This document shows, piece after piece, positions 42,578 through 42,635 of a stretch of 64,000 nucleotides of DNA. Every line of letters starts with the position of its first letter. Within the stretch, counting starts at the first letter, position 1. The translations under genes and the position numbers were made by a program. This DNA comes from Escherichia coli (GTDB lineage Bacteria; Pseudomonadota; Gammaproteobacteria; Enterobacterales; Enterobacteriaceae): the NCBI RefSeq assembly GCF_041886205.1, contig NZ_CP169029.1; one strand, given 5' to 3'. The notes beneath the pieces were generated by a model. The model saw only the letters and a list, made by a program, of their open reading frames with translations, was not told the origin of the DNA and ran no database searches.

Positions 42578-42593
42578 CTGTATAAAACCACAG
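42578..42593. promoter_or_regulatory. LexA (SOS) box upstream of polB
   Basis: CTGTATAAAACCACAG fits CTGT-N8-ACAG; polB (dinA) is an SOS gene. Confidence 0.75.
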
Positions 42594-42603
42594 CCAATCA
42601 AAC

Positions 42604-42635
42604 GAAACCAGGCTATAATCAAGCCTGGTTTTTTG
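42604..42635 (+). terminator. Intrinsic terminator hairpin after araD (upstream of the polB start)
   Basis: aaccaggct-ataatcaa-gcctggtt followed by TTTT. Confidence 0.65.

What the first reader, a model, noticed from the sequence alone, without database searches (positions are those of the whole stretch)
42578..42635. polB LexA box lies upstream of an intrinsic terminator hairpin
The SOS box CTGTATAAAACCACAG sits directly after the araD stop, and a terminator-like hairpin with a T-run (42604-42635) lies between the box and the polB start. The order raises the question of where the polB promoter and TSS sit relative to the araBAD terminator.
Basis: partly seen in the sequence, partly recalled or inferred. 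Interest (0 to 1): 0.2.

Follow-up and report, generated by a model that had tools for sequence, protein, structure and literature searches.

The report
polB promoter built into araBAD terminator
The SOS (LexA) box and the terminator hairpin between araD and polB are both real. There is no paradox, because the polB promoter sits on top of the araBAD terminator and polB transcription starts inside the hairpin's second arm; this is an ordinary, essentially known E. coli arrangement.

Summary
The window is the E. coli araD-polB intergenic region.

- **Elements:** araD stops at 42572-74. The LexA box CTGTATAAAACCACAG lies at 42578-93. A hairpin of -16 kcal/mol (42605-42631) is followed by T6. The polB GTG is at 42649.
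- **Puzzle resolved:** A perfect -10 hexamer, TATAAT (42614-19), occupies the hairpin loop. Published genome-wide TSS data (Kim 2012) place the K-12 polB start at 65803, which is window T42626, in the 3' arm. Klebsiella pneumoniae starts one base further along. The polB mRNA therefore carries only half the stem and is unstructured. Only transcripts arriving from araBAD contain the full terminator. LexA (-48 to -33) overlaps the weak -35.
- **Comparative evidence (80 Enterobacteriaceae loci):** The box and the -10 are invariant, with a fixed 20-nt spacing. The 3' arm and T-run are intact in 52/52 loci where araD is adjacent. They are intact in only 9/23 loci where other genes are inserted and araD has its own hairpin.

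The hairpin is therefore most likely the araBAD terminator, dual-coded with the polB promoter, and it would insulate polB from arabinose-driven transcription. Termination itself was not shown. This is known biology and of low interest.

The parts
41879..42574 (+). araD (L-ribulose-5-phosphate 4-epimerase), the last gene of araBAD; stop TAA at 42572-74
   Evidence: ORF list; annotated as araD in identical E. coli genomes
42578..42593 (.). LexA (SOS) box CTGTATAAAACCACAG. It spans -48 to -33 relative to the polB TSS and lies within the araBAD 3' untranslated region.
   Evidence: Sequence. Identical in K-12. CTGTA.A.A....CA(G) is invariant or nearly so in 79 Enterobacteriaceae loci. polB is listed as an SOS gene in review PMC6590174.
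42591..42596 (+). Weak -35-like hexamer CAGCCA (3 of 6 matches to TTGACA), 17 bp upstream of the -10. Its first 3 nt are the last 3 nt of the LexA box.
   Evidence: Inferred from geometry. It is too weak for the consensus scanner.
42605..42631 (+). Terminator hairpin: 5' arm 42605-14, loop 42615-21, 3' arm 42622-31. It forms only in RNA transcribed from upstream (araBAD).
   Evidence: Folding gives -16.2 kcal/mol, z = -5.0. Intact in 52 of 52 loci with araD adjacent.
42614..42619 (+). polB -10 hexamer TATAAT (K-12 has TATACT), occupying the last stem base plus the loop; -12 to -7
   Evidence: T, A, T, A and the last T are invariant in 79 species while the rest of the loop varies. There is a fixed 20-nt distance from the LexA box in 77 of 80 loci. 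It lies 7 nt upstream of the mapped TSS.
42626..42626 (+). polB transcription start (+1), in the 3' arm of the stem; the 5' UTR is 23 nt
   Evidence: Kim et al. 2012 (PMC3415461) Table S1 gives K-12 65803(-), with 2 reads, a 5' UTR of 23 and the -50..+1 sequence ending ...CTCAAGCCT. It was mapped to the window through a gap-free alignment. The K. pneumoniae orthologous TSS is 69499(-), with 4 reads.
42629..42634 (+). T6 run: the U-tract of the araBAD terminator. The same bases are +4 to +9 of the polB mRNA.
   Evidence: Sequence; a T-run is retained in all araD-adjacent loci
42649..45000 (+). polB (DNA polymerase II), GTG start
   Evidence: ORF of 783 aa; annotated as polB

Best explanation
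The 74-bp araD-polB spacer carries two overlapping signals on the same strand.

(1) An intrinsic terminator for the arabinose operon. RNA polymerase coming from araBAD transcribes through the LexA box. It then transcribes both arms of the hairpin and the U-run, and releases the transcript around 42629-35.

(2) The SOS-regulated polB promoter. Its -35 region is overlapped by the LexA box, its -10 hexamer is the hairpin loop, and its start site (T42626) is in the descending arm.

Transcripts started at the polB promoter lack the 5' arm. They cannot form the terminator and so run into polB. LexA bound at -48 to -33 blocks RNA polymerase binding until SOS induction. The net effect is insulation: polB responds to LexA (and reportedly RpoS) but not to arabinose.

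Shown here: the sequence elements, the folding difference between the two transcripts, the TSS position (from published data), and the conservation pattern. Inferred: actual termination at the hairpin, and LexA occlusion of the promoter.
For: - **-10 in the loop.** The hexamer is TATAAT in the window and TATACT in K-12.
- **TSS position.** The K-12 TSS at 65803 equals window 42626, 7 nt after the hexamer. An independent K. pneumoniae TSS lies at the orthologous place, one base further along.
- **Folding.** The read-through RNA folds at -16.2 kcal/mol (z = -5.0). The polB 5' end folds at only -4.4 kcal/mol (z = +1.0).
- **Conservation in 79 species.** The LexA box core and the -10 are invariant while the other loop bases and the box-to-stem spacer vary. 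The box-to-hexamer spacing is 20 nt in 77 of 80 loci.
- **Association with araD adjacency.** The hairpin plus T-run is intact in 52 of 52 loci where araD ends 230 nt or less upstream. It is intact in 9 of 23 loci where other genes are inserted (Fisher p = 1.5e-9, not corrected for phylogeny). In every insert-carrying locus where the sequence after araD could be examined (22 of 23), araD is followed by a separate hairpin of its own. The box and the -10 persist there.
- **Replaced stems.** Buttiauxella (AAAGTGGTC/GACCACTTT) and Siccibacter (AAACCAGC/GCTGGTTT) keep a hairpin around the -10 with different stem sequences.
- **SOS membership.** polB is an established SOS gene.
Against: - The TSS support is thin: 2 reads in E. 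coli and 4 in K. pneumoniae, from uninduced cultures. No polB TSS was found in the held parts of the Cappable-seq or SMRT-Cappable-seq supplements.
- No 3'-end data for araBAD could be found, so termination at this hairpin is not demonstrated here. Adams 2021 has no araD 3' end.
- The formal covariation test is not significant. The stem is conserved in sequence, and only 3 cells show double changes.
- The -35 is poor, and the consensus promoter scan finds nothing.
- Some loci have a co-directional upstream ORF ending 8-37 nt before the box yet lack the hairpin: Pseudocitrobacter L052/57/61 and Phytobacter/Kosakonia L038/43/53. E. coli EC42405 has divergent inserted genes and still keeps the hairpin. 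The link between upstream gene and hairpin is therefore clean only for araD adjacency.
- The 5' arm stays conserved even where the 3' arm is lost, which the terminator role alone does not explain.
Confidence: 0.8

Rival explanations
1. The hairpin is part of the polB leader. polB transcripts start upstream of it, near or before the LexA box, and the hairpin acts as an attenuator or regulated terminator of polB itself. This is the reading the first-stage note hints at.
For: The order box-hairpin-GTG on one strand. A second low-count TSS is assigned to polB inside araD, at K-12 65946 = window 42483, with 2 reads.
Against: - The invariant -10 is in the loop, and mapped starts in two species lie in the 3' arm.
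- There is no usable -10/-35 pair upstream of the hairpin.
- In Salmonella, Phytobacter and Pseudocitrobacter the 3' arm and T-run are gone while the box, the -10 and polB persist. The hairpin is therefore dispensable for polB expression and control.
Confidence: 0.05
2. The inverted repeat CCAGGC...GCCTGG is primarily a DNA-level element flanking the -10, and the terminator look is secondary. It could be the site of a dimeric regulator, or a pair of Dcm (CCWGG) methylation sites.
For: Both arms contain CCWGG. The 5' arm AACCAGG is more than 90% conserved even in loci that have lost the 3' arm. Covariation is not significant.
Against: - The T-run travels with the 3' arm, and both are perfectly retained exactly when araD is adjacent.
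- Buttiauxella and Siccibacter replace the stem sequence, losing the CCWGG sites or changing them, but keep the pairing.
- No known regulator site was identified.
Confidence: 0.1
3. polB is substantially co-transcribed with araBAD by read-through. LexA would then act as a roadblock to elongating polymerase rather than as a promoter occluder.
For: The LexA box lies inside the araBAD transcription unit, 12 nt before the hairpin.
Against: A strong canonical hairpin with U6 stands between them. polB has its own conserved -10 and TSS. The box-to-hexamer spacing is fixed at 20 nt, which is promoter geometry.
Confidence: 0.05

Closest known systems
E. coli K-12 polB (dinA) SOS promoter/operator, downstream of araD (b0060/b0061)
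   Same: It is the same locus. Within the 74-bp araD-polB spacer only three bases differ from K-12. The LexA box, hairpin arms, T-run and GTG start are identical, and the TSS transfers base for base. From my own recollection, not checked here: Iwasaki et al. 1990 (J Bacteriol 172:6268) and Bonner et al. 1990 (PNAS 87:7663) described the LexA box in the polB/dinA promoter region, and Lee et al. 1986 (Gene 47:231) described the araBAD terminator. These papers are not in the held library.
   Different: The window strain has a consensus TATAAT where K-12 has TATACT, plus two changes in the 5' UTR. The exact 83-nt haplotype is found in 259 of 5093 matching E. coli genomes.
Canonical intrinsic (Rho-independent) terminators in head-to-tail intergenic regions
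   Same: A GC-rich 7-10 bp stem, a 7-nt loop and a U6 tract, 30 nt after a stop codon, in front of a co-directional gene. A 2024 preprint argues that such head-to-tail terminators are the ones under selection to isolate the downstream gene.
   Different: Here the loop and 3' arm double as the -10 and +1 of the downstream promoter. The loop sequence is therefore constrained, which is unusual for terminator loops.
SOS promoters in which the LexA box overlaps the -35 region
   Same: The operator overlaps the upstream promoter element, so LexA competes with RNA polymerase binding. The box is of the CTG-N10-CAG type.
   Different: This operator is also transcribed as part of the preceding operon's 3' end.

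Membership tests
LexA (SOS) operator, gamma-proteobacterial type | 16-bp imperfect palindrome CTGT-N8-ACAG, related to the consensus TACTG(TA)5CAGTA | tested here: met
   CTGTATAAAACCACAG at 42578-93. By my count 13 of 20 positions match the 20-mer consensus quoted in PMC6590174.
LexA (SOS) operator, gamma-proteobacterial type | Overlaps or abuts the promoter elements of the regulated gene | tested here: met
   The box spans -48 to -33 relative to the mapped TSS. It ends 20 nt before the -10 in 77 of 80 loci.
LexA (SOS) operator, gamma-proteobacterial type | Conserved at orthologous loci | tested here: met
   Nine invariant positions, plus G16 in at least 90% of 79 species
LexA (SOS) operator, gamma-proteobacterial type | LexA binding and DNA-damage inducibility | not testable with these tools
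   Literature only: polB is listed among SOS genes
Intrinsic (Rho-independent) terminator | Stable GC-rich stem-loop in the nascent RNA | tested here: met
   -16.2 kcal/mol, z = -5.0, 0 of 200 shuffles as stable
Intrinsic (Rho-independent) terminator | U-rich tract immediately 3' of the stem | tested here: met
   T6 at 42629-34. The scanner reports the site only on the minus strand because it absorbs T's into the stem.
Intrinsic (Rho-independent) terminator | Located just downstream of a co-directional gene end, and its presence tracks that gene | tested here: met
   It lies 30 nt after the araD stop. It is intact in 52 of 52 araD-adjacent loci and in 9 of 23 loci with an insert. AraD then has another hairpin.
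Intrinsic (Rho-independent) terminator | Base pairing maintained by compensatory change | tested here: inconclusive
   The stem is nearly invariant in sequence, and the covariation measures do not exceed the shuffles. Two lineages (L081, L074) have re-made stems, which is anecdotal.
Intrinsic (Rho-independent) terminator | Transcript 3' ends at the U-tract in vivo | not tested
   No araD 3' end appears in Adams 2021. Other 3'-end supplements are not held.
Sigma-70-type promoter | -10 hexamer close to TATAAT | tested here: met
   TATAAT (6 of 6) at 42614-19; invariant T-A-T-A-x-T in 79 species
Sigma-70-type promoter | -35 hexamer close to TTGACA at 16-18 bp | tested here: not met
   The best candidate is CAGCCA (3 of 6). 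The consensus scan returns no promoter. Promoters with a weak -35 and a strong -10 exist, so this weakens the promoter call without excluding it.
Sigma-70-type promoter | Mapped transcription start 6-8 nt downstream of the -10 | tested here: met
   The K-12 TSS at 65803 (2 reads) and the K. pneumoniae TSS at 69499 (4 reads) lie 7 and 8 nt after the hexamer. Read counts are low.

The most novel reading that the evidence does not exclude
The overlap may be a regulatory device rather than mere economy of space.

(a) Heavy arabinose-induced transcription runs through the LexA operator and the polB -35/-10 before terminating. It could displace LexA or occlude the polB promoter, coupling sugar catabolism to Pol II level.

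(b) The only freely mutable part of the terminator, its loop, carries a common CTATAAT/CTATACT polymorphism. This could shift the promoter between sigma-70 and sigma-S use without harming termination.

(c) The U-run at +4 to +9 of the polB mRNA could allow UTP-sensitive reiterative transcription, as at pyrBI, codBA and upp. That resemblance is from recollection only.

None of these was tested.
Probability: 0.1. Interest if true: 0.4.

Novelty: already known. Interest (0 to 1): 0.15.

Why it matters
It resolves a question raised from sequence alone. The operator-then-terminator order is not a contradiction, because promoter and terminator share the same bases. It is a tidy example of dual coding in a 74-bp spacer, and of how a downstream gene is insulated from a strongly inducible upstream operon.

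It is also a practical warning. Deleting or replacing the 'araBAD terminator' would remove the polB -10 and +1. Loop 'neutral' variants (TATAAT versus TATACT) are in fact promoter variants. It does not open a new question of general importance.

Tried and rejected
- **Original papers.** The polB/dinA and ara papers are not held, and Thomason 2015 is not held.
- **Full-text searches.** Searches for polB with araD, terminator or promoter gave only strain genotypes or 'PolB' meaning polymyxin B.
- **Other TSS and 3'-end resources.**
  - Cappable-seq and SMRT-Cappable-seq supplements: no polB entry in the held text.
  - Conway 2014 and Dar & Sorek 2018: no supplements held.
  - Adams 2021: only an internal polB 3' end and none for araD.
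  - The 2024 terminator preprint supplement: no entry.
- **Rfam.** No family matches 42450-42750 at E up to 1.
- **Covariation.** The stem test was uninformative.
- **Orientation of the inserted gene.** I tested whether this predicts loss of the hairpin, and it does not do so cleanly.
- **Allele frequency.** An estimate of TATAAT versus TATACT from identity bands is only rough, because several haplotypes share TATAAT.

Full report
**What is in the sequence**

The window around the finding is the E. coli araD-polB junction.
- A 231-aa ORF (41879-42574) and a 783-aa GTG-initiated ORF (42649-45000) flank a 74-bp spacer.
- The 401 bp around the spacer match 5400 of 5426 complete E. coli genomes, where the flanking genes are annotated araD and polB.
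- The spacer aligns without gaps to K-12 MG1655 (b0061/b0060). Window position x corresponds to K-12 position 108429 - x on the complementary strand.

Reading 5' to 3':
- TAA stop at 42572-74
- CTGTATAAAACCACAG at 42578-93
- stem AAACCAGGCT (42605-14)
- loop ATAATCA (42615-21)
- stem AGCCTGGTTT (42622-31)
- T-run to 42634
- GTG at 42649

**Is it more than chance?**

The hairpin is far better than chance. It folds at -16.2 kcal/mol with z = -5.0, and none of 200 shuffles folds as well. The 91-nt context gives z = -3.6.

The bare pattern CTGT-N8-ACAG is not significant in a 64-kb window: 2 hits against 0.53 expected. The box's reality rests on conservation instead (see below).

The simple scanner reports the hairpin as terminator-like only on the minus strand. 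This is an artefact of extending the stem through the A-T pairs. With the G+C core as the stem, the plus-strand tail is TTTTTTGA.

**Where the polB promoter is**

The last stem base plus the loop spell TATAAT (42614-19). K-12 has TATACT at the same place.

Table S1 of Kim et al. 2012 (PMC3415461) gives the following:
- a polB TSS at K-12 65803 on the minus strand
- a 5' UTR of 23 nt
- a -50..+1 sequence of GACTGTATAAAACCACAGCCAATCAAACGAAACCAGGCTATACTCAAGCCT

That position is window T42626, 7 nt after the hexamer and inside the descending arm of the stem.

The same table gives a K. pneumoniae polB TSS at 69499. Its upstream sequence is ...CCTGTATAAAACCCCAGCGCCCCTCATGAAACCAGGCTATAATCAGGCCTG, which puts the start at the orthologous position, one base further along.

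Read counts are low (2 and 4), as expected for a LexA-repressed gene in undamaged cells. Each datum alone is therefore weak. Their agreement with each other and with a consensus -10 is what carries weight.

Relative to +1:
- The LexA box covers -48 to -33.
- The best -35 candidate, CAGCCA (42591-96, 17-bp spacer), shares its first three bases with the box.
- It is weak (3 of 6), which is why the consensus scan finds no promoter.

**Consequence for the two transcripts**

RNA that enters from araD contains both arms and folds into the terminator. RNA that starts at 42626 begins UGGUUUUUUGAUGG. It has only the 3' arm and is unstructured, folding at -4.4 kcal/mol with z = +1.0.

The hairpin is therefore not in the polB transcript.

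**Comparative evidence**

A scan of one genome per species with the PolB N-terminus returned 80 Enterobacteriaceae loci. L005 has too little upstream sequence, which leaves 79. Counts 'of 80' below include the window.

*Invariant core*
- The box core is invariant: C1 T2 G3 T4 A5 A7 A9 C14 A15. G16 is present in at least 90% of species.
- The hexamer positions T-A-T-A-x-T are invariant.
- The bases between the box and the stem, and the remaining loop bases, vary freely.
- The distance from box to hexamer is 20 nt in 77 of 80 loci, 21 nt in two and 10 nt in one.

This is the signature of an operator-promoter unit, and it constrains a terminator loop that would otherwise be free to vary.

*Hairpin and T-run*

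The 3' arm and T-run behave differently from this core.
- Where araD ends 230 nt or less upstream, the hairpin is intact in 52 of 52 loci (mean -14.3 kcal/mol). Some of these have REP-like palindromes in between.
- Where other genes lie between araD and polB (gaps of 312-1384 nt), it is intact in 9 of 23 loci (mean -6.9 kcal/mol).
- Fisher p is 1.5e-9 and Mann-Whitney p is 5e-8. Neither is corrected for shared ancestry.
- Within-genus contrasts point the same way. In Citrobacter, 5 of 5 araD-adjacent loci are intact, while 4 of 8 insert-carrying loci are weakened. Kluyvera shows the same direction.

In every insert-carrying locus where the sequence after araD could be examined (22 of 23), araD is followed by a different hairpin of its own. 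In Salmonella, Superficieibacter, Phytobacter/Kosakonia and Pseudocitrobacter the 3' arm and T-run are gone, yet the box, the -10 and polB remain.

The 3' arm and T-run are thus needed when araBAD transcription arrives directly. They are dispensable for polB expression.

*Covariation*

The formal covariation test is uninformative, because the stem hardly varies. Two lineages keep a hairpin around the -10 with a different stem sequence: Buttiauxella (AAAGTGGTC/GACCACTTT) and Siccibacter (AAACCAGC/GCTGGTTT).

**What remains unexplained**

- The orientation of the inserted gene does not predict hairpin loss.
  - DUF218 genes on the plus strand end 4 nt before the box with an intact hairpin in two Citrobacter loci.
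  - Homologous DUF218 genes in Phytobacter/Kosakonia, and a 170-aa ORF in Pseudocitrobacter, go with a lost hairpin.
  - E. coli EC42405 has three minus-strand inserted genes and an intact hairpin.
- The 5' arm (AACCAGG) stays conserved even where its partner is lost. This suggests a promoter-spacer or other DNA-level constraint that I could not identify.
- No data showing araBAD 3' ends at the U-run could be obtained. Termination itself is inferred from canonical anatomy and the comparative pattern. From recollection only, it also rests on the 1986 description of the araBAD terminator.

**Comparison with what is known**

This is the K-12 polB/dinA promoter region with three base differences. 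polB is a textbook SOS gene.
- As a LexA operator, it meets the sequence, position and conservation criteria. Binding cannot be tested here.
- As an intrinsic terminator, it meets the stem, U-tract and position criteria. In vivo 3' ends are untested and covariation is inconclusive.
- As a sigma-70 promoter, it meets the -10 and TSS criteria. It fails a consensus -35.

No Rfam family matches.

The overlap of promoter and terminator is a neat case of dual coding, but it lies within known biology. I rate it 'already known' and of low interest.

**Most novel reading not excluded**

The probability is about 0.1. The overlap may itself be regulatory. It could act through arabinose-driven interference with, or LexA displacement at, the polB promoter. 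It could act through the loop polymorphism CTATAAT/CTATACT tuning sigma-70 versus sigma-S use. RpoS is reported to be required for full polB expression, per Dapa 2017 as cited in PMC6590174. It could also act through reiterative transcription on the +4 to +9 U-run.

Noticed in passing
window 42614-42619 (position 42618): There is a -10 polymorphism in the hairpin loop. The window has CTATAAT and K-12 has CTATACT. Both alleles are common in E. coli. K-12-like haplotypes make up about 55% of evenly spaced hits, and the ST2747 and U1 haplotypes carry TATAAT. Both also occur across Enterobacteriaceae. From general knowledge, CTATACT with C at -13 is the sigma-S-preferred -10. RpoS is reported to be needed for full polB expression.
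   Followed up: partly
window 42608-42612 and 42624-42628: Both stem arms contain Dcm methylation sites (CCAGG and CCTGG) flanking the -10. The TSS T42626 is the central base of the second site. The 5' CCAGG is retained even where the 3' arm has decayed, as in Salmonella L019 and L022.
   Followed up: no
L006-L081 (class with gap >300 nt); L085:2121-3253: The araD-polB junction is an insertion hot spot. Different lineages carry a DUF218 membrane protein (+), DUF4751 proteins (-), SMI1/KNR4 plus hypotheticals (-, in E. coli EC42405), an HSDR_N-domain protein (+), or unassigned ORFs. Most of these loci have a second LexA-box type (CTGTACAAAA..(T/A)CAGT), including an E. coli strain.
   Followed up: partly
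L030, L031, L033, L035, L042, L045, L054-L058, L063, L065, L067, L072, L075, L077 (between araD stop and LexA box): In many Enterobacter, Klebsiella, Raoultella and Leclercia loci, long REP-like palindromes of -30 to -70 kcal/mol are inserted between araD and the LexA box. The promoter-embedded hairpin stays intact downstream of them.
   Followed up: no
L052, L057, L061 (Pseudocitrobacter); L038, L043, L053 (Phytobacter/Kosakonia): A co-directional ORF ends 8-37 nt before the LexA box, yet there is no terminator hairpin or T-run at the polB promoter. In Phytobacter massiliensis (L041) the reading frame appears to run through the LexA box. What stops upstream transcription there is unexplained.
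   Followed up: partly
window 42483 (K-12 65946): Kim 2012 lists a second 2-read TSS assigned to polB, inside the araD coding region and 166 nt upstream of the polB start. A transcript from there would meet the full terminator.
   Followed up: no
window 42605-42631, minus strand: The A-run before the stem means the same hairpin also scores as terminator-like on the minus strand. It could stop antisense transcription coming out of polB. No convergent gene is present.
   Followed up: no
window 42629-42634: The terminator U-run is also +4 to +9 of the polB mRNA (UGGUUUUUUG). From recollection only, this resembles the initially transcribed T-runs that give UTP-sensitive reiterative transcription at pyrBI, codBA and upp.
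   Followed up: no
window 32973-32988: This is the only other CTGT-N8-ACAG match in the window (CTGTTGCTGTGCACAG). It is G/C-rich in the centre and consistent with chance.
   Followed up: no
L046 (CACSKA010000010.1): A contig titled 'Chryseobacterium sp. 18061' carries a typical Enterobacteriaceae araD-LexA box-hairpin-polB locus with 78% PolB identity. It is probably a mislabelled or contaminated assembly.
   Followed up: no
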